Shown piece by piece: positions 1-35,405 of a stretch of DNA of 64,000 nt (position 1 is its first letter; each line of letters opens with the position of its first letter). The notes under the pieces were generated by a model. The model was not told the origin of the DNA and made no database searches. It was given only the letters and a program-made list of their open reading frames with translations. The DNA comes from Amphiscolops sp. MND2022 (Eukaryota). Position numbers and translations under genes: made by a program. The stretch lies in assembly GCA_964187785.1 (NCBI GenBank), contig CAXLNC010000888.1, positions 1 to 64,000 on the forward strand, given 5' to 3'.

Positions 1-1
1 A

Positions 2-2607
2 CATCCTATCCACGCTTTCACTGATCATAAACCTCTTTTACACTGTTTTACGAAAAAAAGAAACCTTAGTCCACGCTTTTATAGAGCACAAATGCAACTC
101 ACAAAAGTTTCAAAACTTAAAATAATACATACTCCAGGAAAAAATCTGTTGCTGATTTACTCAGTCGATCTTTTACTAAAGAAGAATTACAAATCAATCA
201 ACTCAAACATAAACATCTTCCACCTCATATTGATTTTACAATACTACAAAACAACAAACTTAAACCAGTTCTTTACTTAATTAAACATGAAGAAGTTCTA
301 CCGCATCAAAAACACGATTCTCATCCAATTCTTGCAGATTATGGTACAGACCAATTTTCATTACGCATTATTGACAAAGGTAATGACATTATAGTTAAAC
401 CTTTGAATTCATTTTCATTCAAAGCTATCACTCCTTTTCAAACCAAATTTAAAGCTCCAGTCAAAAAACATAACAAATCCCTTCATCAACAATCTCTTCT
501 CCTCAATGACACTGATGTTACAAGTGATGATGAAGATCATATCTATACTCGAATTCCAAAACATAACTCTTCCTTTTCACCTGATGAAACCCTACATGAA
601 CAAGAAACCCTTTCTACAATAACCAAATCCAAATCCACCATAAAACCAAAATCTTCATCTGAAATTACTTCTGCTATAGACGTACAAACCAATTCTACTT
701 CTATGACACACTCTTCCCAATTAGTACCTTTTTACGACCCTTCTTTTTTCAAATTTAAAATGTATTTTCAAGGTTTCTTTCTCCCTGACGATTACTCGTT
801 GGACCTTAAAACACTTCAAAGACAACAATCTCAAGACCCAGTTCTCCGAACTGTACATTCTTGGATTTCACGTAATGAAAAGCCTGAATTTCTCACTCCC
901 CTTATTACTGGCAATCTCCTTTTACACGCATATTACAAACGATTTAAACAACTTTTCATTGATACCACTACTAACCTCATAAGCCTTTATATAACCAATC
1001 CACTTCCTCCTGAAACACATCATATCTCCATACCAAACCTACTACACAGTACCATTAGAAGTTGCCTACTTTTCGAATGTTTCAAACTGTATTTAACAAA
1101 TTACATGACCATTCTCATGCAGGTATTAAAACTAGCTACAACACCTTCTCTCAATATTATTACATTCCTTATCTTGAAAAATGGCTCTCTATTTTCATAC
1201 ATGACTGTCTTGAATGCCAAAAAAAACAAACACTTTAATATGAAAATTCAAACTGCTCCTACACAATCGTTTTCAGAACACGCTCCTTTCTTCAATTACA
1301 GAATCTCAATGGACACCAAAGGACCTATTAACCCTCCTTCACAACATAAATCATACATCCACGTCATTGTTGACGCTCTTAGCCACTTTGTTGTCACCGT
1401 TCCAATCAAATCGAACAATGCAAAAACTGCAGTTAAAACCTTATTACATCATTGGATTACAAAATATGGCCCTCCCATTTACCTTGTTACTGATAGAGGC
1501 TCAGAATATCTTAATAAAGATATGGCCCACCTTTGTACACTTATCGGTATTAGACATTCTCCACGAACCGCTTATTCTCCTTGGACAAATGGCCTGGTTG
1601 AAGTACAAAACCGAAATCTCGGCACACACCTTCGTATGTTTCTTCATAACACCCCTGAAGATTGGGCTTTTCAAGTACATATGTATGCTTACGCACACAA
1701 TTCCCATCCAATTTCAGAACTCAATGTTTCTCCTTACGAAATAGTGTTTCACACACGACCCAGAATTCCATTGACATTTGATCTCAATCTTAACCGTGAT
1801 AGCTCCAAAACTTGTATTTCACAATATTGTTCACAACTTCCAGAACACTCACACTATGACAAAACAGATTTAAACCCTTTCGTTTACAAAATTCTTTCAA
1901 AACCCGTTCCACAATGGTTTCTTGCTGTAGAAACTGCAATGTTACAAATTTACTCAACTGTAAATTACCATACTCTCAAAAAAGTCAATTCCCACGCATA
2001 CATCACTAAAACCTACCATGAAGGTAAACCACTTCCCATTCGCACCTTCGACCTTAAACGCTATTTTGCACACGTTCATTTCTCAGACAAACTTAAACCG
2101 CTTCGGATCGGCCCATACAAAATTCTCGATCGATTATCCGATGTTACATATGAACTTCTCGCACAAGACTCTCGCACTTCTCGCACAAGACCGTCGGACG
2201 GTTCTACATTACATGTTCACAGAAATCACTTAATCCCCTATTACCCAAAGAACCACTCTTGTATCATTACCTTCGCAGTTTCATGCGTTTCTCTGATTAA
2301 ATTAATTTTGACGTTCCAAAACCCATTGACAATGCCAACAGCGACTCATCACCTTTTAATTCCGATGAATCCTTTTCTGATGATACATCCTTTTCAGATA
2401 ATGACCAAACCTCGTCACCAAATAACTTTTCTTCACAAACTTCATCAAATACTAATCCTCCTTCAACAAGTGACTCACCTTTCCTATCAACTTTTCAACC
2501 TCCTGGTACCAATCAATCCCGTGACAGAACTCGTCACCCATCTCAAAACCAATCTCCATCACCTTCTCCTACAAATAATAGAGATACCAAAATTCATTAT
2601 AATTTAA
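2..2607 (+). pseudogene. pol: pol 3' half: RNase H C-terminus plus integrase (HHCC, DDE, GPY/F), frameshifted
   Basis: Frame 2 reads HAFTDHKPLL...HTPGKNL, then shifts to VADLLSRSF (RNase H). LHDHSHAG...WLSIFIHDCLEC (HHCC) lies at ~1100-1220 in a frame shifted from ORF 403. Catalytic residues: ISMDTKGP (D ~1312), VTDRGSEY (D ~1492), NGLVEVQN (E ~1600), giving D-35-E spacing. GPY/F region: IGPYKILDRLSDVTYEL...VHRNHLIPYY. Confidence 0.93.
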
Positions 2608-3479
2608 GACAACAACCAAAAATGGATTATCGTATTTTTATACCAACATCCAAACTGTAAAACATTCATCCACTTTATAGTCACTGTTCCAACTAGTCAC
2701 ATAAAATTGGACTACCAACCTGGATTCTTCATCTGAAACACCTCCCTCTGTTCCTCATATACCTTCTACATCTGACTCCTCAGTTTCAAACACCACTACA
2801 AATAGTAATGTAACTCCTGTAACTCCTTCAAAACGACCAAGATCTCATATTATAACTACTTCACCAACACCATCTTCTCATACAACATGTACTCATATTA
2901 GTAGACCACCCATTGCTGAAATACCGTATATTCCTCGTTCTCGATCTCAACCATCATTTGTTCATATACCACACCCTCCTACAGTAGCACATCTTGTAAA
3001 TTACAATCAACCCAACTGCTATTAAAACTGCTCGTGTTTCACCAAACCTTCCCTCTAAATTAGATATTGTACCACTACCTGATATTGAATATACACCTCT
3101 ACCTACATTACACCTGCCATCTGAATCTTCTAATCGATCTCACATTTACCCTCCTTTAAAACCACTAAGACATCCTTCTACCTCTCTTTCTAACTTGATA
3201 GACTCTGCTTCAGAATATCAACCACAAACAGATACTTCCGGTTCTGAAATTATACCTCAACACAGATACAACCTTAGACCTCTTCCAAATAGACGTCTAA
3301 GTGCAACTGATTCATCAACTCTCAATTTTTCGCACTTTCTAGCAACTCTGCATCACGTCTTCTTAGACAACACGCTCAACATCTATCTTCTGATACAGCA
3401 CACTCTTCAGACTTTGTTCCACAATCCTATCTTACTTCTGGACTAGACACAGCTTCCCTACTCTCTTCTGACCTCCAAA

Positions 3480-4035
3480 CTGCATATTTATCCGGCAATC
3501 TCTTCTCTGAAGTCTTAGTACCTACACTTGTTGCTCCTCACGTACGTATCCCCGAATATTATACTTTTGATCAATCAAGACCACCCACTCCTAATTTTGC
3601 AGATTACTCTATACGCGTAGACGGAATCAATATATACGATCCTCAAAACGATCCTCGTTTCCCTATTCTTGCAGAACGATTCATTACTACAAAAAACTTT
3701 CAAATAAACGAAAAGAAACCGAACTCAAACGACTTCAAACTCCTAACTTAGAATTGAAATTCGAAGTCAAAGTAAAGTTTCAAGGTCTTAATCCTCATCC
3801 TATATTTCACGTAGCAAAGATTGAACACAAAACACCTCCTGCTCCATTTGAAGTAATATTAGTCGATTTCAACCGTGATCCTGAATTACACAATTTAGCT
3901 TATGGCAAAATTATTTTCTATAATCCATTCTCTGGACTCAAATATACAACTTCCTTTAAATACACACATACTCTTCATAACTCACTTATTTCTCTTTTCC
4001 ATAAACTCTTTTTTTACATCCTCCATTCCTATTAA
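3480..4035 (+). pseudogene. Possible small accessory ORF between integrase and env (frameshifted)
   Basis: Complex, protein-like peptide SEVLVPTLVAPHVRIPEYYTFDQSRPP...DPRFPILAERF, continuing after a shift into KFEVKVKFQGLNPHPIFHVAKIEHKTPPAPFEVILVDFNRD (ORF 3754..4035). It follows low-complexity P/S/T sequence. Family not recognised. Confidence 0.4.
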
Positions 4036-6555
4036 CCCAACTGATGATAACAAATACCTTCCATCTGATGACCCAAACATAACAAACCTTATGGTCTCTC
4101 ATTATGATTGTGAAAAACAACATAACCTTCGCCAATTTAACCTTCTCAATGTTAAACAATGTACCGAAGCCCCCTCTAACATACAACATGCAAATATTCA
4201 AGCCCGAGTTTATGTTCGAGCAAAAGCTAAACGTATTCGCGCTTTCAAATGCGAGACATATGCTAAAAAAGAAAGAAAAGTTTGTTTTCAAGGTAATGTT
4301 AAATATAGACGTGTTGATAGAACTGTTTGGAACCATAATACCATGCCACTACCGATTACACTTGATCCTCTTGAATGTAAAAATCTTATTAGACACCTTA
4401 ATGGAACTGATAACAAAATATTAAACAACTTTAACTTTAACAAAACTTTTACACTTCTAGAAGACCACTACTTTCAAGAACAATTAGAAAGATTTCAAAC
4501 CCCTTTCACTGTTTATCAATTCAACAAAATGTATACAGGTACATTTACCTATATGCCTACTGACAAAACATGGATATATGACCCACTTCGAAACCCTCAT
4601 CATAACTGTCCAGCTCACCACCAATTTGAAGTCAACTTAGTTAGTTGGCGTCTTGCTATATCTGGAATTGAACTTACATATGATGATACACAAAACGCTA
4701 TGATCATTGGTCATACTCTCCCATGTTACTTTGCTGATGGTTTTTGTAAACCTACTACGAAAACTCCTTTCACACTTGTATGGTTTAGTGACGACTTTTG
4801 TCTTATTTTTACACTACAAGACTTTATTGGACGCATGACTAAAATAGACGACCGTTATTGGATAGAAACAGACTCTTTTGTACATTCTGCAACTGCAAAA
4901 AAATCTTCTTCTTTCGATGGTATTAAGGGTACCTCTTATCCTTATATTCGTGCTCCTCATACTGAAACTCCACATAACCCAAGTCTTTCTCGTTTTGAAG
5001 TTTTCCCCAATGCACATACCTTTTGCGGAAAACCTGAACCTCTATATTCCACACAATATTCCGACCTTTTTGTTACTTATACTGAAGGATTTAACATGCA
5101 TACAGGACAACCAATTCCCACTTCTATAATCAATGAATATAATTCTGGCAAAATTATATTGAACAATTCTAATAACAAATACATCTTTCCTGCATTGAAC
5201 GTTTCTAACAACTTTGCTACAATAGACTATGATGCCCATATAAATACTAAAATTGATTACACCATTAACCATGTATTTTGCTCTATGACTGTCCAAGAAC
5301 TTAATACTCTTCATACAGTATGTGAATTAGAACGCAACCAACTTCTTACAATACTTGCAATGTCAGTACAGAATCCTCAACTTGCTGGCTTCCTTTTAAC
5401 AGGAAATCGCAGTAACTTTCTCTATGTTGAAGGATCTACTGCTTTGCTATATGACCGCACACACTTTCTGTCTCCATTATACATTATGCTACTCCTATTA
5501 CATGTGATAATAACCCAAATAACAATATTGAACTTGACCCTGATTCTGATGATCAAGACTTCTATATTCTTAGCCCTGAACCTATTAAACGAAAACCTCC
5601 ACTTATGTTTACTCCTTCCCAAATTAAAACTACAATACGACCTAATACCTTTACAGCTCAAGATGCTGGTATATACTCTAATGCAGAACTAAATCAATTT
5701 TGGAACAGAATTTTATTTTGAAAACACTCTGATACTACCCTTCAACTTTTAGGATAAGCTCTTAGCTATTCCTTTATTTCTTCTAATACACCTGATTATG
5801 ATGCAAATTCCCCACATGGTAACCCATATAATACACTTCGAATTGGACTTCATGATCGATTAATAAACCTTACTCCCCTTTTTACTCCTACATGGTTCTC
5901 TGATGCCTTTATTGCTTTATTTGGATACCCATGTTACATTTTGACACAATGTGGAAATTACTTTTCCACATATCTTTTTCTACAAACAATGTTAACTCTC
6001 ATTGTTAAATTATACAAAACCATTTCCATAAAGTACAACCTGAAACAAAATATTACACTTCTCAACTCTATTGCAGGTTTTCTCAATATTCTTACAGCTG
6101 ACATGATACATGACCTGAAAAATACTCGTTCTAAATCATCCTCTAAAAGTTCACACCAACTGCCAAACATTACTGACAACCCAATAGATGAATCTTCATA
6201 TAATCCTAATGAGACAACTGGTATTTCTTCAAATCCAACTGGTATTACTTCACCACCACCTTTTTATACAAAACGCCCAAATCGGATTTCCAAAATGACT
6301 CGTTTTAAATTCCTTCCAAAACGAAAGCCATATTCCAATCAAACATCTCATAATGTTCACTCCAAATCTAATACTCCATCATCCTTACCACATTATTTTC
6401 CTGTCACCACAAATCCCAATGATTACTCTTTAAATACATCATCTGTCGATTGTGAGATGGACACTCCTGTCCGCATATATTCAAAAACTAATTACTCTTT
6501 TCCTCCGCCATCTTTTAACACTGATCACTTTGACTTTTTTACTCCTCCAACATAG
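3902..6555 (+). pseudogene. env: Envelope glycoprotein, chuvirus/herpesvirus-gB-like (class III fusogen), disrupted
   Basis: Hydrophobic leader ILFITHLFLFSINSFF. Cys motifs SHYDCEKQHNLRQFNLLNVKQC, FKC...KVCFQG, PCYFADGFC, WFSDDFC, FCGKPEPLYSTQYSDLFV and TVCELERNQLLTILAMSVQNPQLAGFLL. Deletion/frameshift at ~5480, TGA at 5719 and TAA at 5755, then hydrophobic WFSDAFIALFGYPCYILTQCG..FSTYLFLQTMLTLIV in frame with ORF 5941..6555. Confidence 0.8.
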
Positions 6556-6807
6556 CTGGCCACTCTTCTAACTTCATCAATCTCAACTCTCTTCTCACAA
6601 AAACTTCTTCTTTGCAAAAATTTCAATTAATTCTCTAAACACTTCTTTCTCTGACAAACTCTACATACTTCTCTCTTTCAACAATTGAATCGAAAATCGT
6701 CATTAACCTAAACATTCGTGTCAACATTCCTACCCCAAAAACTTCGGATAAAGCCACACGTTAGTGTTTTGTTTCCATATTGTACTCTCCAAAAATTTCT
6801 TCATACT

Positions 6808-8016
6808 ATGACCCAAGCACAACTAGATTTTCAAAATATGACTTCTCAAGTAACTCAAGAACAAATTGATCTTCAAAATCAACTTGAAATGCACACTGCT
6901 GACCTTATTACTAAGACTCTTTCAAATGACTCTCCTGTTCTGTTTCTTGATACTAAAGAAACGCCTGATGATCCCATTCCTGATCGAATGGAACACCAAA
7001 ATATTCCTTCAAAAAATAAAACACCTTCGGATCATGATCAATCTCCTGACACTCCTCCACCTACATAAAAGAAATATGAAATCATGAAAGATCCTGCATT
7101 TCTTTTATCACCAATCTATCCACCAATACTACCTACAAAACCACAACTCTCTACAAACCGTGATGACTACCTTGTACCAATACTTTCTACAAACCGCTTT
7201 TCCTTCAAATCACAACTGACTTCTCAGTATATGCTTCCTACTGATTATACCTTCAAACTGTATGATAAAAACCAAGATTTTTTCACGTCCATTGCTTCTA
7301 AATTTATGGCACCCTATCAATTTTGGCTTGAAAATGCAATCAAAATATTTTCCCTCCAATTCAATTTCCTCCGCCCATCGATCTATGATCTAAAAACGGA
7401 TGAAAACGATCCATCGTTTCTATCAGCAGCACAAAAAGCTACTCATCATTTAACATATACTCGCTTTCTTCAACACTCAAAACCTCAAAACTGTATATTT
7501 GCAAACTATAAATATACTTCTCCTTTAACCATGACAAATTTGTACACTATTGATTACTCCAAAATAACCGGATACCTTCGAAACTATGATCCAATCAAAC
7601 AATATTTTTGTTTGCTTCCTCATAATGATACATCTCGTCCTCTCATCGTACCTCAAGAGTACCTTATTCATTTTGATGACTTCTTGTTGCCCTGCAACAT
7701 TCCCACTCAGATTGTCAAACCTTTGATAGTTATTAAACATCTTGTTTCTACACCACTAGACGACAAAGATACCTCACATTATACCGCTCTCTATAAACAA
7801 TCCTATTCTTACAATGAACTTTTGTTCATAGCCGCGAAAGTCATCTCATACATGGTTCAAGCTGAACAACAACTCACAGTTCAAAATGAACAACGTTCTT
7901 ATAACGATCATAAATCTCCTTCGAAATCTCCCATCAAACAAACTACCAGTGAAAAACTTACGACTATACTAAATAATCGTACTCTGAAGGATCTCACCCA
8001 AATGTTAGATCCATAA
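6808..8016 (+). pseudogene. Accessory ORF3 downstream of env (~402 codons, one internal TAA at 7066-7068); function unknown
   Basis: ORFs 6718..7068 and 7084..8016 share a frame and are separated by one stop; ATG at 6808. A clear homolog lies at ~32640-33460: FWLENAIKIFSLQFNFLRPSIYDLKTD vs FWQNKCIRFFQFQFKLLKPTQHDLNTN, and NYDPIKQYFCLLPHNDTSRPLIVPQEYLIHFDDFLL vs NYDPDKQYFVLTSYHGLTRPLFVPQEALYLKDDFLL. Confidence 0.8.
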
Positions 8017-8682
8017 AAACGCAATTCGTCCGATTCTCCAATCACTACCCTTAATCATCTCATACATTGTCATAACAGAACTTCGCAACTCCTTCAAACT
8101 CTAGATCTCGATTCTCAACGCATAACACAATCCTCTCAAGCAATCCAATCTGCGCTTGAATCTATGAATACTCTTTTTAATACTCTTAATATCTACTAAA
8201 TCTTCTCTCAGGTAATACAAGTTTCTTTAATTTTCCTCCGATATTGGACATTTTTGGACACTTTCCTGTGTTGAACATATTCTTTCCAAAATACAGGTAA
8301 CATTCCTTATTTATTTTTCATACATTTTGCCTATATCTTTAGCACACAAACTCAATAATCTATTTTACTCTTGCTCTCTCTTCTAGCACTTTTTAGGACT
8401 CTCTTTTAGATTTATAAGACACAAACAAAATCCATATTAAAGCACCAAATTATGTGACAAAAACTTCTGGCATTCTGTTCTCAAATCTCAGACTACTTTC
8501 GTTTTAGAAACTTCTATTCTTCCTCCTCCTTCTGGTCTTCTTTCAGTCTCCGCCAATTCCAGAAAATTCTATCAAGACTTCACCTTTCATTCTTCATCCA
8601 ATGGCCAAAAGTCTGAAATAAAACAACTTGTTACTTCAACTGAATCAAAAGTCCATAGCCTAAAGCTGCCATTTTTCATACT

Positions 8683-9072
8683 ATGGCTTACAAAATGTCT
8701 CTGGAAATAAACAAAGGAAATGTCACTCTTCCTACTCGTCGTTCCTTTCTTAAAGTTCTATACAATGTATGCCAGATCAAGAAAAAGCAGATCACATTTG
8801 AACAGTATTATCGAGTTCATGTTCATGGACCGAAAATCGCCATTTTCGAAACTACTTCTGACACTGCGTTCGTCCTTAACTCCGCATTTACTACAAAGGA
8901 CAACTATTTTCAAGTAGCACAGGATGACCCTATTGACGCCTTCAATGCCGTACTCTTAGACTTTGGGTACACACAACAATTGCAGCGCTACAACCCTGAG
9001 ACCCATCAAGTTCACCCTCCGTCAAAACATCCATTCTGGCCGAAGAATTACACTTCTGATAATTCCAACTAA
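8683..9072 (+). CDS. Hypothetical 129 aa protein in the 3' region of copy A
   Basis: Intact ATG-to-TAA ORF with globular-looking composition, on the same strand as pol and env. No homolog seen in the window. Confidence 0.4.
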   Translation: MAYKMSLEINKGNVTLPTRRSFLKVLYNVCQIKKKQITFEQYYRVHVHGPKIAIFETTSDTAFVLNSAFTTKDNYFQVAQDDPIDAFNAVLLDFGYTQQLQRYNPETHQVHPPSKHPFWPKNYTSDNSN

Positions 9073-10207
9073 CCTATTTTCTTCACTTCTCATCACTCTT
9101 ATGCTGTTGCTTTCTTCCAGGGCTTCATAGATGTCATCATTGTCAACATGCATCTTTCACTTCCTGCTTCTCAACCTCTCCACATCGCCACTCCTTCTCT
9201 TGCGTCGCTGCTACTCTTCTTCGCTGTCTCTCTAGACATCGTCACTTTGTGGTCCTCTCTGCTTCTTCGTCAGATGACTACATCACTTCATCTTACTTCA
9301 AACTTTAAACTTTTACGAAACTTCGTCGCTGTATAATCTTAATCTATAATCTTATCCCAGTATAATCTCAATCTATAATCTTAAAAATACTATATCCAAA
9401 TACTCTAATAACCAATTGTAAACAATGTATACTCTATAATCTTTATTATGTTAGTCAAAATTAATATACTATATGCAATTTAGTGCTTAACGTCTCAAAA
9501 CCCTATATTCGTTGTTGCTCTATAATCATCTAATATTAACATTTTTGTACCAAATACGCAAATTCGCCATATATTACATATTATCTTACTAAATATATTC
9601 TTGTCCTCCTTCCTTTTTCACAGTACAAGACCTATTTTTATAGAACAAATGTTTTACCTTAGGAATTTGAACTGAAAATTTGAAGTTTGAATCCTTTTCC
9701 AGTCATTCAATCTTTCTTTTCTTTCGAATGAAAAATTAACTCAACCGTTGTTACTTCTAGACTTCTTCACACTTTGTTCACAACCAGCCAATGTTTGTTC
9801 ATACCTCATTGACAACTTCCAAAATCGGTCTTCAACGCCAAAAGTTTTCAATTGAATGCTCACTTGAAGAACACTCACATATTTTTTTCAAAAACAAGCC
9901 GATGGAGCTTATCAAATAAACCATAACAGAGGCTGTCAATCAATAACTCGAACTCCAAATGTCAAAATCCAATATTGACAGAACGTTGCACCAATATGAA
10001 CCGTCAAATGACTAAGAAGTTCTAACCGTCCTAGGTTGTTCTCACTCCTTAAGTATGGTACTCGAATATAGCATGAAACATTGAACACCTATAGTACAAA
10101 ACCCAAACCTTCAGAACATATAGATATATTTTTCAAAACCCGGTCGATTTTGACGTCATGACGCATGACATCAAGAATCCTAAATTTGTGAAAGTATAAA
10201 TAAACCT

Positions 10208-10569
10208 TGTGACCTGATAGCATGACAGATGTCACTCTACTCAGAAGTTAATACTCCATTATTGCGATGCTGATATTTCATTATAATTTAATCTCTTGAA
10301 CTTCATCTTATAATTATTTGAAGTCTATTTAATCTCATTATTGATTGATGTACTAACTAAATCTATATAATCAGAGTAACTCGAATGTTGTAATCAACCA
10401 GTACTCTCATCCTCGAAGAGAAAGAATTCTGAAATCTCAGTCTGAATAGTCCTACTCAGTTCATTGAAATAAGTATAGCTAGCTAGACGGTATTCTGTTA
10501 AGACTTAGTAAGAACTTCTTATGTATTCACTAAAAGAACTAAAGTCAAACAACCAACAAGTCTTTAACA
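10208..10569 (+). repeat. LTR-like segment TGTGA...TTAACA (second copy 13866-14228)
   Basis: TGT/ACA termini, AT-rich, TATA-like ctatataat inside, abuts a truncated gag. No TSD or PBS found. Confidence 0.4.
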
Positions 10570-12590
10570 GCTCAACTTCCTCGGAAAACTGAATCAAGGG
10601 GCAAAAAAAAGCGTTTGGTGACGATGCTCAAAATATGATTGACAGTCTCCTCTGCGCAAAATTGCCACCGAAATTGAAAAGATCAGTCAATATGGCCAGA
10701 TTGGAAAACGGCTCCTACGATGAAATAGTTGCTCAGTTGGAAAAAGAGCTTGAGTTTAAGGCCCATGAGGAGTCAGATGACCTAACAATGGCAACGATGA
10801 CTTCCTCTACATCTAAGCCCAAAAGCTTTCTCTCTAATGGACTATCACACGGCATTGTGTGCAATTACTGCAAAGAAAAAAGCCATTTAATCGAAGACTG
10901 TGGGAAATTTGAAAATAAAAAAGAGAAGGATGCCCAAAAAGGTAAACCGACTCAGAAGAAAGTTCACCCTGAGTGTAGAACTTGTGGCAAGAAAAATCAC
11001 CCTGAAGAACGTTGTTGGCAAGGAGCAGGTGCCCATCTCAAGCCTAAACGTACTAGGCCTGAAGTTCCATCGGATCGCAATCCAGACTCGAAAATGCAAA
11101 AACCACAATACAATTCAACATCGTCTGGCTCCCAGTCCACATCCAAGAAGGACGACCAAAAAACCTAGCTTCGCCACGACTCCAACACAACGATCTAGTA
11201 TCAGTCCGACAATTTGTCAGATCTGACAATCCAAAAGAAGTCTTCCACGAACATCAACAACAATTGATGGGGTATCCCTCTGTTGTCTGGCAGCAACAGA
11301 TGGAAAAAGCTATACCCATCACAAATAATAAGACACATTCGTACCAAAAACCAATTCCTGTTTGGGACCCTGATTACACGACAAACTTCACTAGCCGATT
11401 CAGGCCCATTCCCTACAATCCGACGTACATTGATCCACACTACAGCAGAGATACCTACTGGGACACTGAAATCTATAACCAGGACTTGCTGAAATTCTAG
11501 CATGTCCTAGACGATATCGAATTCCACAACAAATCAGTCCATAAAAATCCACTGATAACTCACAACAAGAACTCTCGGGTGCTCGACAAAAACTAGGGCG
11601 CTCAAAGAATACCGAAAACAACGCAGAACCGACGCCTCAATCGCTATTGGACGAAACACAATTCCAAAACGTTCTTATCACCAAAGACGGTCAGATTGAC
11701 TGTATACTCACTTTCTACAAAAATCAACCTCTAATGCAAGAAACGCATGTTGTATTTGTCAATGGACTATGGGGAATTAACCATAGAGGTCTAATCGGCC
11801 TGGGGCATTGTCCAGTGCAATTCCTGAAATGGACCTCCGGAAAATCCGTTTACTTTCTCCACAATCAGTTATCCGGGAGGGTCCACCCCCGAAATTTCAA
11901 ATATTGGTCGCTAATGGACAATTAAAAACCTTAAAAGTACAATTGATCTGAAAGTTGAGGTTGGTGATATCGAGTTCCATGAAATCTTCATAGTAATTGA
12001 GGACCTGCCGAGACCAATAATTGGACTACTGTTCCTCCAGAGAAATCATACAGTCCTGGACATGAAGCATGGCATTCTGAATTTCCCATTCTTTTAGATG
12101 CAACTCAAAACAGCGGATCATCGATACTCTAATGTTCTTGATTCAATCCCGAATCCTACAGAAATAGCCATTCCACCGAACGATAGAGTCCTAATTAGGA
12201 CAAATTCACTACTCTATCGCGAGAACGCAGTCACTGGCTTACTTCAACCAAGTGACCTTTTACACGAAGAGGGGGATATTACATGTTGCCCAGCACTGGT
12301 CACCTTGACTGATACCAGTTCAAAAACAGCAAAGTTCAAAAAAGGACTGCATTTTGCTAATTTTTCTGTGATGACGCCAGAACAGATAAAATACGTCAAA
12401 CCGATGGACCCAGTGTCAACCTGGAATCTACTACAAAATGACCAGGAACAAGCAGCCCACAATGTTAGCAGTCTCACGAAGACAAAAAAAATCCGCAAAT
12501 TTCTGTGAAAATATTGGTTTCCGACTCCAGAGAATCCTGGAGTCCCTGATGAACACACGCCTATCCAGAAAGAATCCTACGTGAATTACA
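10570..12590 (+). pseudogene. gag: Gypsy family B fragment: gag C-terminus with two CCHC knuckles, degenerate protease and start of pol (duplicate at 14229-16248)
   Basis: CNYCKEKSHLIEDC and CRTCGKKNHPEERC (CX2CX4HX4C). Decayed protease region ...GLIGLGALSSAIPE...PIIGLLFLQRN. Homologous to the minus-strand element at 26.7-28.4 kb (LPPKLKRSVNMAR shared). Confidence 0.88.
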
Positions 12591-12760
12591 GGCCTTACAA
12601 GACCTGGAGACCCTTGATCCCACTTGGTTGCTCTGGCAAGTCCATTTGTTGATGTCTAAATGCGATTCCAGGAATGTGAATTGGGAAGGGTACATGACAT
12701 TTTTCCTTAATTTTGTTGACTGACATATTGATGCTAAGGAATGTGATTTTCACACCTATG

Positions 12761-12764
<4 letters not shown>

Positions 12765-12824
<60 letters not shown>
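12765..12824. repeat. (TA)30 microsatellite
   Basis: Direct read. Confidence 0.98.
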
Positions 12825-12825
<1 letters not shown>

Positions 12826-15800
12826 TAGCAACTCTCATAGGGAGAACACAATTTTGAAAAGTGTTTTGCTGTTCAAACCAATCAAATGCTACTTTTCCGA
12901 TTTAAAAAATTCATTTTACTGTGATATGAGCACAGTAAGTTCTCAAATCAGAGAGCCACAAATGAGGCTATTAGTTTCCAAATACTGCCTCAAATACAGG
13001 CCACTCTGAAATCCGGACAAGGACACATGTCTCAGAGGAGATGGGAGAACCCGGCTAGAAGTCCGGTATACAGGTCCGGAGAAGCCTTAGACCGTGGGTT
13101 TAGGAGCGACTCCAGAGGTGAGTGCTACAGATTTCCAAACAGAAATCAGGACCTAGAGAGTACTCATTACAGCAACGTTTATTTCAAATATGCTCAGGAC
13201 GTATTTATGGAAAGCTTTGAAAACAGTTTCGAGACACCGAAAGGGGTGCCTTTCATGCTCTATAAGACTGGGGAATCAATCACTTTTTCCACAACTGGTA
13301 ACAAAGAAACTCTTTTTTGAAAACAAAACTCTTTTGTTTTGTCGTTCCTTTCGATGTGTTTAGGTCGTTAGGACTCTAATATTGCTTGTGATGTCATCAA
13401 AATCTTTGTCAAAAAGACTAGAAGGTACTTCTCCAAAAGATTAATTTCGTAATTATTGTTGTAAAAGTTTCAAGGACCAAAATCGGTCTTCAACGCCAAA
13501 AGTTTTCAATTGAATGCTCACTTGAAGAACACTCACATATTTTTTTCAAAAACAAGCCGATGGAGCTTATCAAATAAACCATAACAGAGGCTGTCAATCA
13601 ATAACTCGAACTCCAAATGTCAAATTCCAATATTGACAGAACGTTGCACCAATGTGAACCGTCAAATGACTAAGAAGTTTTAACCGTCCTAGGTTGTTCT
13701 CACTCCTTAAGTATGGTACTCGAATATAGCATGAAACATTGAACACCTATAGTACAAAACCCAAACCTTCAGAACATATAGATATATTTTTCAAAACCCG
13801 GTCGATTGTGACGTCATGACGCATGACATCAAGAATCTTAAATTTGTGAAAGTATAATTAAACCTTGTGACCTAATAGCATGACAGATGTCACTCTACTC
13901 AGAAGTTAATACTTCATTATTGCGATGCTGATATTTCATTATAAATGTAATCTCTTGAACTTCATCTTATAATTATTTGAAGTCTATTTAATCTCATTAT
14001 TGATTGATGTACTAACTAAATCTATATAATCAGAGTAACTCGAATGTTGTAATCAACCAGTACTCTCATCCTCGAAGAGAAAGAATTCTGAAATCTCAGT
14101 CTGAATAGTCCTACTCAGTTCATTGAAAAAAGTATAGCTAGCTAGACGGTATTCTGTTAAGACTTAGTAAGAACTTCTTATGTATTCACTAAAAGAACTA
14201 AAGTCAAACAACCAACAAGTCTTTAACAGCTCAACTTCCTCGGAAAACTGAATCAAGGGGCAAAAAAAGCGTTTGGTGACGATGCTCAAAATATGATTGA
14301 CAGTCTCCTCTGCGCAAAATTGCCACCGAAATTGAAAAGATCAGTCAATATGGCCAGATTGGAAAACGGCTCCTACGATGAAATAGTTGCTCAGTTGGAA
14401 AAAGAGCTTGAGTTTAAGGCCCATGAGGAGTCAGATGACCTAACAATGGCAACGATGACTTCCTCTACATCTAAGCCCAAAAGCCTTCTCTCTAATGGAC
14501 TATCACACGGCATTGTGTGCAATTACTGCAAAGAAAAAAGCCATTTACTCGAAGACTGTGGGAAATTTGAAAATAAAAAAGAGAAGGATGCCCAAAAAGG
14601 TAAACCGACTCAGAAGAAAGTTCACCCTGAGTGTAGAACTTGTGGCAAGAAAAATCACCCTGAAGAACGTTGTTGGCAAGGAGCAGGTGCCCATCTCAAG
14701 CCTAAACGTACTAGGCCTGAAGTTCCATCGGATCGCAATCCAGACTCGAAAATGCAAAAACCACAATACAATTCAACATCGTCTGGCTCCCAGTCCACAT
14801 CCAAGAAGGACGACCAAAAAACCTAGCTTCGCCACGACTCCAACAAAACGATCTAGTATCAGTCCGACAATTTGTCAGATCTGACAATCCAAAAGAAGTC
14901 CTCCACGAACATCAACAACAATTGATGGGGTATCCCTCTGTTGTCTGGCAGCAACAGATGGAAAAAGCTATACCCATCACAAATAATAAGACACATTCGT
15001 ACCAAAAACCAATTCCTGTTTGGGACCCTGATTACACGACAAACTTCACTAGCCGATTCAGGCCCATTCCCTACAATCCGACGTACATTGATCCACACTA
15101 CAGCAGAGATACCTACTGGGACACTGAAATCTATAACCAGGACTTGCTGAAATTCTAGCATGTCCTAGACGATATCGAATTCCACAACAAATCAGTCCAT
15201 AAAAATCCACTGATAACTCAAAACAAGAACTCTAGGGTGCTCGACAAAAACTAGGGCGCTCAAAGAATACCGAAAATAACGCAGAACCGACGCCTCAATC
15301 GCTATTGGACGAAACACAATTCCAAAACGTTCTTATCACCAAAGACGGTCAGATTGACTGTATACTCACTTTCTACAAAAATCAACCTCTAATGCAAGAA
15401 ACGCATGTTGTATTTGTCAATGGACTATGGGTAATTAACCATAGAGGTCTAATCGGCCTTGGGCATTGTCCAGTGCAATTCCTGAAATGGACCTCCGGAA
15501 AATCCGTTTACTTTCTCCACAATCAGTTATCCGGGAGGGTCCACCCCCGAAATTTCAAATATTGGTCGCTAATGGACAATTAAAAACCTTAAAAGTACAA
15601 TTGATCTGAAAGTTGAGGTTGGTGATATCGAGTTCCATGAAATCTTCATAGTAATTGAGGACCTGCCGAGACCAATAATTGGACTACTGTTCCTCCAGAG
15701 AAATCATTCAGTCCTGGACATGAAGCATGGCATTCTGAATTTCCCATTCTTTTAGATGCAACTCAAAACAGCGGATCATCGATACTCTAATGTTCTTGAT

Positions 15801-16418: not shown

Positions 16419-16422
<4 letters not shown>

Positions 16423-16472
<50 letters not shown>
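16423..16472. repeat. (TA)25 microsatellite (paralog of 12765-12824)
   Basis: Direct read. Confidence 0.98.
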
Positions 16473-16473
<1 letters not shown>

Positions 16474-28854: not shown

Positions 28855-30690
28855 CGTTGTGTTAGGTTATATATTAGATAATTAGTTTACAGTGTAAGGT
28901 ATGGTATTGAATTTAAATTAGAAACATCAGCATTCAAGATATATATTCTAAGTCTAGACATTCAACAAATAAGTGGGGAGGGGATGATCGAATGTAAGAT
29001 TATAGGTATATCATCTAGTCGGGTTTTCAAAAAAAAGAAAGATATTTTACATTTAGGAGTAACATAAAGAGGGGTCGATGAGATGCACATATGAATGTCT
29101 GAGGTTGTTTCAATAGATTTGAGGCGTTTCAATATGATGAGAGAGTCGATTTTTAAGCTTTTGAAGAATTGGTGAGATTGTAAAAAGTAGTTTTTTTCAG
29201 AGGTCAAAATTAAGTTGCAAGTTAAAGTTTTATCAAGTTGTGTATAATCATTCTTTCCTTTTGTGAGGTTCGTGCAAATATGCGATTTTTAGCTTAAGAC
29301 AGATAAAGAGAACGGAGTTGGAGTGGAGTTAAAAAGTTGTAGGAATTTGAATTTTAGATTTGAATGCCATAAATTTGAATTCTTAGAATTCGAAATTTTG
29401 AAATGTTATGCAATTTTAGCTTTGTATGTTCCGTGGGGCTGCTGAAAAAAGGAACAATTGAAAGTGATTTACAAATGAAAGAGTAGCGGAAAAAACGAAA
29501 AGTGGTGTGAAAAGAGCAAGTGAAGAAGGGCGACAGCCTTGTTGACAAACATGAAGCGTGATGTAGACGAAGATTCCTCGTTTTCATTCAAATTAAGCAT
29601 TATCTTAGGCGTCTTTTTCTGAACAACAAAAATAAATTTTATTTTGGAGGTTCAGCGGCCAGACGGCGGCGTGATCAAAGTCAAAAAAAATTAAAAACTA
29701 ATCAGATATTAGTCACCATTTTGTTCAGAATTTAATCACATGTGGCGGGTAAAAAGTGTTGAAATTTTTTTTTGTGATACTAAAATCAAAAACGTCATTC
29801 CAGAATAAGTCAATACTTGAGGTGAATAACCGTTCGATTGTGAACTAGGAGGAGTAGATTTGAAAAGTGTGTTAGAACTGAAGGTATTTAGGAGTAAAGT
29901 TGTTTGAAGATTGGATAAAAAAAGAGTTGTAGTTGAAACCTTAATTAAAATTGAGAAAAGTTTAAAATGTTGTGGAAAATTTTACATGAGCATGCGAGCA
30001 GATGTGACGAACAATTTTCGGCAAATTGACTCGCAAATTGACTCGAGACTTGCAACAACAGAAGCCTCTTCAGTCAGAAGGAGAACAGCATCTTCATGCA
30101 GAAGGGGAAGAGGCGCAGAAGCAGACTGCTGAGCACTGAAGGTGGCATTGGAGAGCATGGAAGATATTGGTGATAGTGCTGACAAAGAGGAGGAAGAAGT
30201 TGTAGCTACTGTTGCTGTGGACAGCAGAGTGGATGTGGGTAAAGAGAAAGTGGATGATGTTGAAGAGACCGGCGCTGACAGAAGAGAGTCCAGCATGCGG
30301 TTGAAATTGGGTATTCCATTGTGGAAGGAGGATAAGGAGTTGAAGAAGAGAGAGATATCATGATTTGAAGAAGAAAATGGGTGATAACTAAAACGAACTT
30401 TTAGACTAATATTGTTGAATATGTATTTTTTTGTCGAGTGGGTGTTTAAAATGTGTTTGTGTTGTGTTGTGATTAATTTTATTGATAGGAGACAGGATGA
30501 AGAGGCAACGGTACGAATGGAGTACTAGGAGATCCAAGATTAATTCTTAGTCTTGTGATATCCGTAACGTTTTTATGGACTGGCTATGAGTATGTGACAA
30601 CAGAGCAAGGTTGGGAAGAGTCAGTACTCAAAATTTATTTGTATGAATATTTTGTGAGAATTCAAAGTCTTTTTTGGCAGAACAATGTGA
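28855..30690 (-). mobile_element. Inverted 3' fragment (S/T-rich ORF, 3' UTR, PPT 29251-29262, LTR 28855-29250) of the env-bearing family
   Basis: Reverse complement aligns to ~34240-36868 at roughly 80-85% by eye, with internal deletions. AAAAGGAAAGAA|TGATTATACACAAC. Confidence 0.88.
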
Positions 30691-31750
30691 CAAAGTCTCC
30701 AGTCAACTCATTTCTGGTAATCTCGTTCATAATCAAAGTAAATTCATTTTTCATGCTTTAAACTCCTCCAACTATTTTGCTACTATATTTTATGAAGCGC
30801 ATTTAAACACTAAAAATGATTACTCTATCAACCATGTTTTTAAAACAATGTCAGTGGTTGAACTCAACACCCTTCACACTCTTTGTGAAGTAGAAAGAAC
30901 TCAACATTTAACCATATTCGCAATGTCTTCAAAATCCACAACTTGCTGCTTTTCTCCAATCTCAAAACCGTAGCAACTTTTTATATGTCGAAGGCTCAAC
31001 TGCCTGGCTCTATGATTGTCCTCGCCACCTCTCTCCTCTATATACAGCTGAACAATGCTTTGACAAAGTCCTTTTCAATTATCTTGACACTGTCATGTAT
31101 GTCGACCCTTATACTCGTCAAACTTTTGAATACGCTAACCAAATACCATGTGAAAACAACCCACAAAATGTTATTGCTCTCGACCATGACACAGAACAAT
31201 ATTATGTTCTAACTTCACAACCTGTTAAAAAAGGTCCTCCTCATTTCTTTGAACCTACTCAACTTCAAACGCTATTAGCCCCAACACCTTTACTGTCCAA
31301 GATATTTCTTTATTTTCCACATCTATTTTTTCCGCGAAAGAACTCAAACATTTTTGGATTTGTGATCTTTTCACTAAACATTCAGATGATGCCTCCCAAC
31401 TCCTTGGTAAGGCTATGAGCTATGAATTCATTAGTAGGCAAACCCCTGAATTTTTTCCAAAAACTCCTTATAAATCTATTAGAATTGGCCTCCATGATTT
31501 TATGTTAAACTTAACTCCCTTTTTACACCTGAATGGTTCACTGATGCTTTCCTTAAACTTTTTGGTTATATATTTTATATTTTAACCCAAAATGGAATTT
31601 ATTATTTTTCCACTACACTTTTTCGTCAATTCGCATCCAACACAACCTTTAGTTTATACTGCTCCATCACAGTTACTAAAAACTTTGAAAACGAATATCT
31701 CTCCTTTCTGCTTTTGGTTATGAATTTTTGGAACTGTAACCAAAACAAGG
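30690..31750 (+). pseudogene. env: C-terminal half of the class III-like env, copy B (frameshifted)
   Basis: NYFATIFYEAHLNTKNDYSINHVFKTMSVVELNTLHTLCEVERTQHL, NRSNFLYVEGSTAWLYDCPRHLSPLY, YVDPYTRQTFEYANQIPCENNPQN and GLHDFMLNLTPFFTPEWFTDAFLKLFGY align with copy A. Confidence 0.88.
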
Positions 31751-32639
31751 ATGACCGCTATGAAAAAACCCTCCGAATCTATCTCTGACTCTGAATATTT
31801 TGATACACCTCCTCATGGTAAATCCAATACTAATCACCTATTAAAACATTCTAATAACACTAAATACAAATCTGATATCAAATTCAAAATTGTCCAAAGA
31901 CATCATGCAAAGATCTTCACCAAAAAAGTATCCTTCTATCAATAAAATCTCTCCACCTTACCCTTTTTACCATTCCACAATTAATCGAACATATTTCACC
32001 CCCTCCTCCTAACTATAATTTACATAATAACTTTCCTAATAATCGTTAACCTCGTCACTCACAATTACCTTCATTGTCTTTTCTCATTGTACCTCCTTAT
32101 ACCAATAATTCTATTTGCCCTGAAGATACTAATTTTGACAACACCTCTACTTATTCTCCCATACACAAGGTATGACAATCAACCAAAAATTGCCCTCCTA
32201 CTCCACTTCCTGACATCTCACTAACTTCTGTCAATAGTATATTCAATCAACCTGCAATCCCATTAAAATTCATTCATTGTGCCGCTTGCCACCTGAATAA
32301 AGATAAGCCCTTTTTTCCTTCAAATATTTCATCACTTCTCTCGCTTTTTGCCCATTGTTCAGTCGTTTCTTCGGAATCACTAAATCTCATTTTCATTTCT
32401 CCAAACTTTCGTACCAATTTTTCATCAACTTTTTTATCACTTCGTCTTTTATACTTGTCTTGTTATGAAATGCCTATAATCTTTTAAACACATAACATTC
32501 TCATCACTCTCTCTACTCATACTATCACCTCGTTTCATTACAATATTGAACTGTTATAATTCCTAAAAGTTTTTACACTTTAAAACATAAAACCCAAAAT
32601 ACATTTTCTGTCATCCAAAATTATTTCTGACCCAAAATT

Positions 32640-33463
32640 AATGACCTCCCCTACCCATGATGAGGAGCTCCTTTCCACCGTTTTAAAACCAATCTCCAGC
32701 CTCTATTTATAAATCCTAGTACATATGAATTTAGATTTCCAGAACACAGCACTTTCGATCACTTTCTGGCAAAATAAATGCATTCGCTTCTTTCAATTTC
32801 AATTCAAACTTTTGAAGCCCACTCAACATGATCTTAACACTAATCCCATTGATAAAACTACTGCTCTTTCTGTTAAAAAAACTCCACCACCAAGCATACC
32901 AACTCTTTGTTGAACAAAAACATCCAAAGAAGTTCCTATTTCATCAACTTTACTTTACCTTTCTCGTACCTCTCTCACTATTCTTTAAAACATCGGTACA
33001 CAAATGGCACTATTTGTAACTATGACCCAGATAAACAATATTTTGTTCTCACCTCATATCATGGTCTAACTCGACCTCTTTTTGTTCCACAAGAGGCTCT
33101 TTACTTGAAAGACGATTTCTTACTACAAACTCATGTTCCAACCAGTCAACCAGTGTTGCAAACTCCTTCTCAAAAATGAATAAATCATCGAAAGCTCCTC
33201 GCGATGATCACTCTCGCTCTCTCTACACTTCATTAGTTCAAAAACAATACTCAATTGCACAAAAAAACTTCATCATTGCTAAACGTTCCTCCTTTATTCT
33301 GAAAAAAAAACAATACAAGTACTTTCCGGACACCACCAATATTCCTGGAGAAACAACAAAAACTTTTGATAAACATGTTCTTCCTATAAATCTTGAACTC
33401 TCTACCGTTACTCCTCCAACTTTTAAAAACAACCTCCTCTGTCGTATGTTCTTACAACTGTAA
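32640..33463 (+). pseudogene. ORF3 homolog, copy B (fragmented)
   Basis: See motifs listed for 6808-8016. Also LYTSLVQKQYS vs HYTALYKQSYS. Confidence 0.8.
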
Positions 33464-34579
33464 ACCCAAATGTGTACATAAACTCAATCTCTTGCCCGAC
33501 AGACAAATTCATTACTGAGATTTTAAATCTTCTCCGCCCACATGTTGAACACTCTCCTAATACTGACCCCTTCGTCATCTTTTATCATATTTTTGGTACC
33601 TATCAAAATCTTCAAAACCTTCTCCAATATCATAGTACTGATATTCAAACCTTAACTCTATCTACCATTCATGTCAATGACTTTCGCAAAAAAAGTGTGG
33701 TTCTTGAAATTTCTACTCGTATTCAACTTCTCGAACTTTCCTCCTCTTCATCTTCACTTGTCCTTTTTAAACTTTCACTCCTCCTCAAATTTCACTCCCA
33801 ATGTAGACACAAAAGACACAAAAAAAGTTTTTCTCAAAAGTCTTTTACAAACATTTTCCAAAACATCTTTTCAAAATTCCATCTTTGAAGAATTTTTTTT
33901 CATCAAATTTGACAGCTTTTCTCCTATCGTAAATTGCTATTTCATACACTATTCACTTCTTTAAAAATGCAAACTTTATAATTTCTCGTATTGTCTAAAT
34001 TGTATGTCTAAATTGACATCTTTCGAAATTTTGATGGTCATTCTAACAATTTGACATTTTGATCTCATTTCTTTTGTTTCAATCTTTTCCTGTTTTATTT
34101 TCATCACCTTTTCACCTTTCTCATATCAAAGTAACATAGTCTCCTTTCATTGCAAAATTATTTTCCATTTTCTAGTTCTCTTTTGCTTCACTCTCACTCA
34201 AGCACCTGGGTTGAATAGCAGCGTAAAAAGAATCGTAATTGGCTCCAAGAAAAATCTGTTTAAAAAAATCTTTGAATTCTCACAAAGTTTTTTCACAAAT
34301 AAATTTAAAGTATTGAATCTTTCCAACATTACTCTGTTGTCATATACTCATAGTCAGTCCATAAAAACATTGCGGATTTCACAAGACTAAGAGTTAATCT
34401 TGGATCTCCTAACACTCCATTCGTACCTTTGCTCCTCATAATTCTACCTCCTATCAATACTTTCAATCACAACACGACACAAACACATTTTAAACTCCAC
34501 TGGACAAAAAAATAAATATACTACAACAGTAATCAAAAAGTTTGTTTTAGTTATCACCCGTTTTCTTCTTCAGATCAAG

Positions 34580-35405
34580 ACATCTCTTTCTTCTTCAACT
34601 CTTTATCCTACTTCCACACTGGCATACCGCAATCTAAACCGCATGCTGGACTCTCTTCTGTCAGTGCCAGTCTCTTCAACATCATCCACGTTCTCTTTAC
34701 CCATATCCACTGTGCTGTCCACAACATCAGTAACTACAACTTCTTCCTCCTCTTTGTCAGCACTACCACCAACATCTTCCATGTTGTTCAATGCCACCTT
34801 CAGTGCTCAGGAGTCTGCTTCTGCGCCGTGTCCACTACTGCCTGAAAATGCTGTCGCCACTTCGTCACAACTGCAACAATTTTCGGCAGTTCGCGAATTG
34901 ACTCGAGACTTGCAACAACAGAAGCCTCGTCACCCCAAACGACAACAGATCCCTCCTGGTGAAGCTGGCACACCCACAAAGCGCATAGTCCACGCAGCTG
35001 CGTACAAAATGAACCAACATAACGAAGCTCTCAATCATTATTAACAATATTTTGATCAACTGCTCTAAAAAACAAACCGCTGAACTAACACTTAATAATG
35101 TCGATACTATTGTAAATAGTTTTCAAACACCCTCCAAATTAGCCAAATTTAAAACTCTTTTTTACAATCCCCCCTCATATCACCACTCCCTGTTCACATT
35201 CCACTCAATAATTGTCATAATTGCTTTCAGTGCTATCCCCATCGTTGTTCACATCTTCTCCATAATTACTGTAATTATTCATCTTTTCCCCTACCTCCTG
35301 CATCCCAGCCGCGCAACCCCATTAAAACAGAACCGCTTACGCTCCCACTCCAGTGAATTCTTTAAATACCCTAACTCCCTAAATCACATCCCCTCAAGAT
35401 GTTGA
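34580..35405 (+). pseudogene. Ser/Thr-rich accessory ORF4 (homolog on minus strand at 29982..30360)
   Basis: MLDSLLSVPVSSTSSTFSLPIST vs MLDSLLSAPVSSTSSTFSLPTST. The opposite strand is also partly open, so coding strand is inferred from element polarity. Confidence 0.5.

What the first reader, a model, noticed from the sequence alone, without database searches (positions are those of the whole stretch)
6808..8016. Conserved unknown ORF3 downstream of env in both subfamilies
Seen: a ~402-codon frame with a single stop follows env in copy A. Copy B has a homolog at the same position. The nucleotides are strongly diverged, but blocks such as NYDPxKQYFxL...RPLxVPQExL..DDFLL and FW....I..F..QF..L.P...DL.T are kept. 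That pattern implies purifying selection on an accessory gene. Standard gypsy elements end after env. Inference: a complex-retrovirus-like accessory protein (matrix, regulatory or anti-silencing) of no family I recognise.
Basis: partly seen in the sequence, partly recalled or inferred. Interest (0 to 1): 0.72.

Follow-up and report, generated by a model that had tools for sequence, protein, structure and literature searches.

The report
Complex-retrovirus-style accessory gene in Gypsy element
A large family of virus-like jumping genes in this genome carries, right after its envelope gene, an extra gene of no known family that is conserved as strictly as its core enzymes and likely encodes a nuclear regulator of the element, a layout that recalls complex retroviruses more than ordinary Gypsy elements.

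Summary
The frame is a real gene, 61 codons longer than reported (6808-8199); this copy carries two stops. It belongs to a ~17.9 kb Ty3/gypsy element: LTR, gag-pol, an ATG-less ORF-X, class III-type env, ORF3, ORF4, LTR. Four high-copy subfamilies and one decayed subfamily keep ORF3 at about 40-80% core identity. Within subfamilies dN/dS is 0.055-0.127, like pol and env. Env lay upstream in 75 of 92 loci (15 misses had too short a flank) and 19 of 20 more; ORF3 followed env in 18 of 20. No Pfam or PDB family matched. The protein has an acidic disordered start, a basic NLS-like motif, a conserved core, a C-terminal heptad helix and no membrane segment. Three sub-threshold signals point to a Tudor/KOW-like barrel in the core. 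Best guess (0.45): a nuclear trans-regulator working like foamy-virus Tas or Rev/CERV; this is inferred, with no RNA data. The layout matches fish foamy-like ERVs, but in a Gypsy lineage. The scan's index held no look-alike.

The parts
2..2657 (+). 3' part of pol of copy A (end of RNase H region, integrase, GPY/F SH3-like tail); the contig starts inside it
   Evidence: Pfam rve E 3.5e-16, SH3_Tf2-1 E 1.7e-5; tblastn to pol of a related copy 73-84%
2705..3957 (+). ORF-X between pol and env, Ser/Thr/Pro-rich, no ATG near its start, conserved CUG in strong context at 2720-2722; frameshifted in this copy
   Evidence: dN/dS 0.097 in a C-subfamily pair
3902..6555 (+). env, class III-type fusion glycoprotein, broken in this copy
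   Evidence: Pfam PF24664 Monjiviricetes_fusion E 1.9e-6 here, E 8.8e-23 in an unbroken copy
6808..8199 (+). ORF3, 463 codons, internal stops at 7066-7068 and 8014-8016
   Evidence: 430-495 aa open frames in other copies
6808..7053 (+). ORF3 N-terminal acidic, Ser/Thr/Pro-rich, likely disordered segment; poorly conserved between subfamilies
   Evidence: net charge -4 to -12 in 4 of 4 subfamily representatives; alignment
7054..7077 (+). basic cluster at the start of the core, NLS-like (by resemblance, recalled)
   Evidence: present in 11 of 11 aligned copies from four subfamilies
7078..7890 (+). ORF3 conserved core (~270 aa)
   Evidence: core dN/dS 0.01-0.09 in diverged within-subfamily pairs
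7525..7689 (+). predicted small beta-barrel of Tudor/KOW (SH3-like) type inside the core; holds the NYDP..KQ and RP..VPQE blocks
   Evidence: same strand pattern in both models at pLDDT about 50-64; VIA Z 3.1-4.2; Foldseek E 0.9; Atlas 0.77; all below threshold
7957..8196 (+). ORF3 C-terminal helix-turn-long helix with heptad repeat
   Evidence: pLDDT 74-87; heptad a/d hydrophobic fraction 0.56-0.75 in 4 of 4 representatives
8601..9072 (+). ORF4 (~160 aa), frameshifted in this copy
   Evidence: dN/dS 0.032 within subfamily A
10151..10575 (+). 3' LTR of copy A (repeated at 13807-14234 by a local 3.65 kb duplication)
   Evidence: 84-86% to the LTR of a young A copy; repeats D1-D6
30680..32298 (+). 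copy B: 3' half of env, broken (subfamily C)
   Evidence: PF24664 E 2.8e-5
32682..33723 (+). copy B: ORF3 remnant in several frames (subfamily C)
34604..35353 (+). copy B: ORF4 remnant of the C type
   Evidence: tblastn 33%, E 5e-24

Best explanation
ORF3 is a conserved accessory gene of an envelope-carrying Ty3/gypsy element, and its protein is likely a nuclear trans-regulator of the element's own expression, working like foamy-virus Tas or like Rev/CERV. Shown: it is a separate gene after env, inherited with pol and env, under selection as strong as theirs, with no signal or membrane segment. Inferred: the basic cluster would take it to the nucleus; the core, with a predicted Tudor/KOW-like barrel, would bind the element's DNA or RNA or the transcription machinery; the C-terminal heptad helix would oligomerise it; the acidic disordered start would recruit host factors. 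Between activating transcription and exporting unspliced RNA the evidence does not choose; the acidic start and the KOW/CarD/UvrD-type neighbours in the fold list lean slightly to transcription.
For: Selection: whole-gene dN/dS 0.055 [0.035-0.078], 0.057 [0.039-0.081], 0.127 [0.089-0.172] in A, C and D pairs; in one C pair pol 0.074, env 0.081, ORF3 0.060; a neighbouring frame run the same way gave 0.73 [0.39-1.39]. Co-inheritance: identity from A to B, D, C falls in the same order for RT (90-94, 79, 73%), env (87, 51-77, 56%) and ORF3 core (81, 51, 43%). Anatomy: acidic start, basic cluster, net-basic core (+3 to +9) in 4 of 4 subfamilies; highest 19-residue hydropathy 1.08; heptad helix. Barrel: both models give the same strands; model residues 149-204 are spanned by most of the 50 VIA rows, which are largely Tudor, KOW, chromo-barrel and CarD-type domains; top Foldseek row is a PHF1 Tudor domain; the best named Atlas clusters are Tudor_3/Agenet. 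Precedent: foamy viruses keep tas and bet downstream of env (PMC5210030, passages); CERV is a 517-aa nuclear protein of a Gypsy-class element with a candidate basic NLS and leucine zipper (PMC10309623, section 9).
Against: No function was measured. Both models are poor (mean pLDDT 56 and 44; most of the first half of the core under 50), VIA Z is only 3.1-4.2, Foldseek E 0.9, Atlas 0.77; each is within what chance gives, and small SH3-like barrels are common and show no function. Profile searches with the barrel alone matched no Tudor family. The basic cluster is short and such clusters are common. No splice acceptor is conserved just upstream of the ORF3 start across subfamilies, which weakens a Rev-like need. 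No sequence similarity to Tas, Rev or CERV appeared in any Pfam or PDB search. In 2 of 20 env-bearing loci ORF3 is absent.
Confidence: 0.45

Rival explanations
1. ORF3 is a structural or assembly protein of the particle (matrix-like, Env partner or RNA chaperone), possibly captured together with the fusion gene from a negative-strand RNA virus, where nucleoprotein, phosphoprotein and matrix genes neighbour the glycoprotein gene (gene order recalled).
For: Fixed position next to an env of Monjiviricetes type; near-complete linkage to env; selection as strong as on structural genes; a disordered acidic part plus a coiled coil also describes viral phosphoproteins (recalled).
Against: No membrane segment or signal peptide; the element has its own gag with Retrotrans_gag and a CCHC knuckle; a conserved basic cluster and a Tudor/KOW-like lead fit a nuclear role better.
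Confidence: 0.22
2. ORF3 counters host silencing, for example as a Tudor-like decoy for piRNA-pathway or chromatin-reader interactions.
For: Tudor-type neighbours in three weak searches; the family has expanded to many young copies with 98-100% identical LTRs.
Against: Core dN/dS of 0.01-0.09 shows no sign of an arms race (no site test run). The invariant barrel residues are mostly polar or charged, and by eye the positions that form the methyl-binding aromatic cage in Tudor domains (recalled) hold His, Ile/Thr, Pro/Ser and Asn/His/Asp.
Confidence: 0.2
3. ORF3 is a captured host gene or enzyme remnant kept as cargo, with a role outside nuclear regulation.
For: Gene capture is documented in rotifer LTR elements (PMC5408684, passages), and unchecked scan notes report enzyme-derived cargo in other Gypsy families of this genome. 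Half of the core has no usable model.
Against: Every inspected genome match sits in this element family; none of 2911 longer candidates scored; all 120 listed homologues in each of two searches are unnamed and without Pfam domains.
Confidence: 0.11
4. The frame is non-coding 3' sequence kept open by base composition or recent amplification.
For: The element's plus strand is very G-poor (GC skew -0.26 to -0.52); no expression data.
Against: dN/dS 0.055-0.127 at dS 0.8-1.2; open 430-495 aa frames starting with ATG in four subfamilies with saturated synonymous sites.
Confidence: 0.02

Closest known systems
Fish foamy-like endogenous retroviruses DrFV-2, PpERV-1, AcERV (PMC5210030, passages)
   Same: One or two ORFs between pol and env, two or three downstream of env, sizes up to >17 kb, accessory ORFs under purifying selection and of unknown function.
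   Different: Those are Retroviridae; this RT is closest to Ty3 (124 bits against 73 for foamy), gag and pol form one frame, and env is class III-type. No sequence link was found or directly tested.
Foamy virus Tas/Bel1 and Bet
   Same: Position downstream of env; acidic activation region plus NLS anatomy for Tas (recalled).
   Different: No sequence match in Pfam or PDB; an internal promoter and response elements were not tested.
CERV of C. elegans Cer1 (PMC10309623, abstract and section 9)
   Same: Extra ~500-aa protein of a Gypsy-class element with candidate basic NLS, a helix-hairpin with leucine zipper and globular domains; no obvious homologues outside its lineage.
   Different: CERV is spliced from gag-overlapping exons, has a Cys loop and a G-protein-like domain; ORF3 is one unspliced frame after env, has no invariant Cys and no G-protein-like lead.
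Ancient errantiviruses with HSV/gB-type (class III) env (PMC13524379, abstract, sections 5 part 1 and 14, passages)
   Same: Ty3/gypsy pol, gag-pol-env order, class III-type env, multicopy young insertions.
   Different: The passages read describe three ORFs only; this element adds ORF-X, ORF3 and ORF4 and is ~17.9 kb. Whether its gag-pol-env is in that catalogue could not be determined.
Extra ORF3s of bdelloid Vesta/Juno elements and Burro giants (PMC5408684, PMC6431247, passages)
   Same: Extra genes 3' of pol in invertebrate Gypsy-like elements.
   Different: Those are recognisable GDSL, DEDDy, TM or apoptosis domains, in place of env or inside a polyprotein; this one follows a full env and matches no family.

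Membership tests
Ty3/gypsy (Metaviridae) LTR retrotransposon | pol domain order PR-RT-RNase H-IN | tested here: met
   (protease only E 0.24; RT, RNase H and IN above cut-off, in that order)
Ty3/gypsy (Metaviridae) LTR retrotransposon | RT closer to Ty3 than to retroviruses | tested here: met
   Ty3 E 5e-35, foamy E 3e-19, HIV E 3e-4; similarity ranking, no tree
Ty3/gypsy (Metaviridae) LTR retrotransposon | LTRs (TG...CA), primer-binding site, short target duplication | tested here: met
   416-420 bp LTRs; TGGTGCGAC after the 5' LTR and 4-bp duplications in the four A copies examined, one offset by a base
Errantivirus-like element with class III env | separate env ORF after pol encoding a class III fusion protein | tested here: met
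   909-aa ORF, PF24664 E 8.8e-23, N-terminal hydrophobic segment; the C-terminal anchor did not pass the hydropathy cut of 1.6; env was not folded
Tudor/KOW (SH3-like) barrel fold | small antiparallel beta-barrel with a 3-10 helix after the fourth strand | tested here: inconclusive
   pattern in both models at pLDDT about 50-64; VIA best Z 4.2, rmsd 2.1-3.3, 44-55 aligned; Foldseek E 0.9, TM 0.51 to PHF1 Tudor; Atlas 0.77
Methyl-reading Tudor domain | conserved aromatic cage | tested here: inconclusive
   by eye with recalled cage positions most are not aromatic; no residue-level structural alignment was available
Methyl-reading Tudor domain | match to a Tudor Pfam family | tested here: not met
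   0 of 9 barrel sequences and 0 of the listed families for 108 sequences
CERV / Rev-type export proteins | made from a spliced mRNA | tested here: inconclusive
   acceptor-like AG in 4 of 7 A copies shown, not conserved at that place in B, C or D; no RNA reads
CERV / Rev-type export proteins | needed for export of unspliced genomic RNA | not testable with these tools
   needs cells
Foamy Tas/Bel1 transactivators | sequence match to the family | tested here: not met
Foamy Tas/Bel1 transactivators | activates LTR and internal promoters | not testable with these tools
   needs a reporter assay
Negative-strand virus N, P or M protein | fold match to a viral N, P or M | tested here: inconclusive
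   low-confidence model; no row under E 0.001
Integrase C-terminal SH3 (GPY/F) duplicate | profile match to the element's own integrase tail | tested here: inconclusive
   hhalign probability 1.1% with thin profiles, Neff under 2

The most novel reading that the evidence does not exclude
A Ty3/gypsy lineage has independently evolved the full plan of a complex retrovirus: a CUG-started gene before a class III env and two genes after it, one of them a Tudor/KOW-barrel transactivator that engages the host transcription machinery as Tas or Tat does.
Probability: 0.3. Interest if true: 0.8.

Novelty: new variant of a known kind. Interest (0 to 1): 0.58.

Why it matters
Regulatory accessory genes are the mark of complex retroviruses; in Gypsy-class elements the papers seen here give one worked-out case (CERV). 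A young, high-copy Gypsy family with env and three extra selected genes, laid out like fish foamy-like viruses, would show that this complexity arose again outside Retroviridae and gives a new protein family to test for how such elements control their expression. The function is unproven and the family is so far seen with context in one genome only.

Tried and rejected
Pfam on window ORFs, homologues and 108 aligned members: no family at curated cut-off for ORF3. PDB by sequence: only designed coiled coils at E 0.025-1.8 and unrelated rows. Fold search of the 382-aa model: best Z 6.9 to generic helical bundles; viral library, no row under E 0.001; absence there shows nothing. Atlas on the 359-aa protein: no usable hit. 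Viral and metagenome contigs: 70 and 429 pattern matches, 0 confirmed. Longer fused forms: 0 of 2911 candidates, weak evidence. RNA: no RNA holder listed, so no reads were laid. Three copies of the C-terminal helix: no verdict. Origin from the integrase tail: no match. A fifth ORF after ORF4: rejected, dN/dS 0.67-0.73 with intervals spanning 1. A conserved splice acceptor before ORF3: not found. Cluster members carried no names or accessions. A genome-wide survey of other class III env genes could not be run, so whether more distant env-bearing families lack ORF3 stays open. Literature searches gave no description of this gene; they cover open-licence PMC and bioRxiv text only, and the host was not identified, so a repeat-library entry or a supplement table could hold the element.

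Full report
Observation. Window 6808-8016 is a 402-codon frame with one internal stop, and its only other strong match in the window is copy B at 32764-33143. A close copy elsewhere in the genome aligns over 463 codons to 6808-8196, so the gene ends at 8199 and this copy has two internal stops, at 7066 and 8014. Its dN/dS against its two nearest fetched relatives is 0.23 and 0.29, against 0.13 between those two, as expected for a dead copy that has begun to drift. Copy B is a frameshifted remnant of another subfamily.

The element. The window is the start of a contig in a 1.07 Gb genome; the host was not identified, and an unchecked scan note calls it an animal. Stretches around six A-type copies show a ~17.9 kb element with 416-420 bp LTRs that are 100, 100 and 99.8% identical in three copies, 4-bp target duplications and a primer-binding site. 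The order is gag-pol in one frame, a ~420-codon ORF-X, a 909-aa env, ORF3 and a ~160-aa ORF4. Pfam gives Retrotrans_gag, RT, RNase H, integrase and, for env, PF24664 Monjiviricetes_fusion at E 8.8e-23; ORF-X and ORF4 match nothing. The RT is closest to Ty3. Subfamilies B, C and D have the same layout, with LTR pairs at 98.2, 99.7 and 99.3% in one copy each (six copies examined, the others interrupted or incomplete).

The family. Genome searches scored 147, 92, 94 and 133 matches for A, B, C and D queries; these are lower bounds out of several thousand candidates each. A fifth, decayed subfamily E gave 11 top matches. Open ORF3 frames are 430-495 aa. Protein databases hold 571, 436 and 1730 relatives; the rows listed are all unnamed ENA proteins without Pfam domains. 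Viral and metagenome contig scans confirmed none.

Selection and linkage. Whole-gene dN/dS is 0.055, 0.057 and 0.127 in A, C and D pairs with dS 0.86-1.2, intervals all under 0.18 (Nei-Gojobori with bootstrap). Core values are 0.01-0.09 in diverged within-subfamily pairs and in A-B pairs; between A, C and D synonymous sites are saturated and ratios (0.14-0.36 where defined) are not reliable. In one C pair pol, env and ORF3 give 0.074, 0.081 and 0.060. A candidate fifth frame gave 0.73 and served as a negative control. Env was found upstream in 75 of 92 loci; 15 of the 17 misses came from a query starting mid-gene, so their flank did not reach the conserved part of env. With longer flanks env was present in 19 of 20 further loci, including 8 of 8 from subfamily E. 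In reverse, of 144 env matches I took 20 that I had not seen in the ORF3 lists; 18 carry ORF3. RT, env and ORF3 diverge in the same order across subfamilies, which suggests joint descent; no tree was built.

Anatomy. In 4 of 4 subfamily representatives ORF3 has an acidic Ser/Thr/Pro-rich start, a basic cluster, a net-basic core of ~270 aa and a C-terminal heptad helix, and the A protein has no membrane segment. AlphaFold2 was confident only for the C-terminal helices; the core model had mean pLDDT 44. Both models gave the most conserved block the same short-strand pattern ending in a 3-10 helix. Searched with the core model, most of the 50 VIA rows align to residues 149-204 and are Tudor, KOW, chromo-barrel or CarD-type barrels, but with Z only 3.1-4.2; the top Foldseek row is a PHF1 Tudor domain at E 0.9; the Atlas, given that segment, lists unnamed clusters first (0.79-0.81) and Tudor_3/Agenet clusters at 0.77. 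I had noted this resemblance by eye before the folds. These are three weak leads that agree, none above its threshold, and profile searches with the barrel found no Tudor family. The invariant barrel residues are mainly polar or charged; judged by eye with recalled cage positions, a methyl-binding cage looks absent.

Mechanism. Shown: a separate, strongly selected gene that travels with env. Inferred: nuclear import through the basic cluster, binding of the element's nucleic acid or of the transcription machinery through the core, oligomerisation through the heptad helix, recruitment through the acidic start. I put 0.45 on this regulator reading, 0.22 on a particle protein (perhaps captured with env), 0.20 on an anti-silencing factor, 0.11 on other cargo and 0.02 on no gene. 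How ORF3 is expressed is open: an acceptor-like AG precedes the start in some A copies only; Tor elements of Oikopleura express env from an internal promoter (PMC4402516, passages), so that route is possible.

Comparison. [quoted passage not shown] The broad survey of env-carrying Gypsy elements describes gag, pol and env, with prefilters of 10 kb and a 1 kb pol-env gap for most non-insect genomes (PMC13524379, abstract, sections 5 part 1 and 14, passages); here the gap is about 1.27 kb. Its supplements were searched for six genus names only, so the element may be listed there. The closest layout is that of fish foamy-like ERVs (PMC5210030, passages), which are retroviruses. The closest functional precedent in a Gypsy-class element is CERV (PMC10309623, abstract and section 9), which differs in origin and domains. 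Chuvirus glycoprotein capture by BEL/Pao elements was seen only as search listings (PMC7642597, PMC10084718). Nine paper searches found no account of this gene. The scan's own index held no look-alike and its notes on this genome concern other Gypsy families.

Verdict. A real accessory gene of a new protein family in a young, env-bearing Gypsy lineage with three extra genes; function inferred, not shown. New variant of a known kind; interest 0.58.

Noticed in passing
window 2705-3957; L032:5550-6809, L114:5480-6913, L123:5311-6582, L129:5966-7132: ORF-X between pol and env has no ATG near its start, but all four subfamilies keep a CTG followed by GAT with A at -3, a strong start context; dN/dS 0.097 (C pair) and 0.17 (A-B). 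Likely a CUG-started protein with a conserved C-terminal ~90 aa.
   Followed up: partly
window 8601-9072 and 34604-35353; L033:1433-2008, L115:2078-3016, L124:1485-2069: ORF4 is under selection in each subfamily (0.03-0.29) but differs between them: A/B 64% alike, D about 22% to A, C a 300-aa Ser/Pro-rich protein with no tblastn match to A. No Pfam match.
   Followed up: partly
L031:6150-6700, L113:6210-6700: The long 5' leader holds short tandem repeats of roughly 45-50 nt, different in A and C; possible packaging or regulator-binding sites (seen, not measured).
   Followed up: no
spacer env stop to ORF3 start, window 6556-6807: About 200-250 nt and free of ATG in three A copies and in the B copy examined; not so in the C and D stretches, whose printed spans ran past the spacer.
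   Followed up: partly
window 1-10000, 31000-37000 and 29000-30700: The element's sense strand is strongly G-poor (GC skew down to -0.57), which marks copies and their orientation; 28896-30675 is the inverted 3' end of another related copy.
   Followed up: no
window 9819-16955: A 3.65 kb tandem duplication at 99-100% identity that includes copy A's 3' LTR.
   Followed up: no
L039-L040 (G000:C12): An env-ORF3-ORF4 block repeated 8.9 kb apart at 99.9-100% identity.
   Followed up: no
L113-L115 and L044: Related elements lie head-to-head or tail-to-tail beside one another at several loci, as in the window near 30700.
   Followed up: no
P0128, P0210, P0262: Homologues from short unnamed contigs have no close match in this genome (best 50%, 49%, 61%), so the family may extend to other genomes.
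   Followed up: partly
L124:3566-4033: A frame resembling the end of a seven-helix receptor flanks one D copy, by eye only.
   Followed up: no
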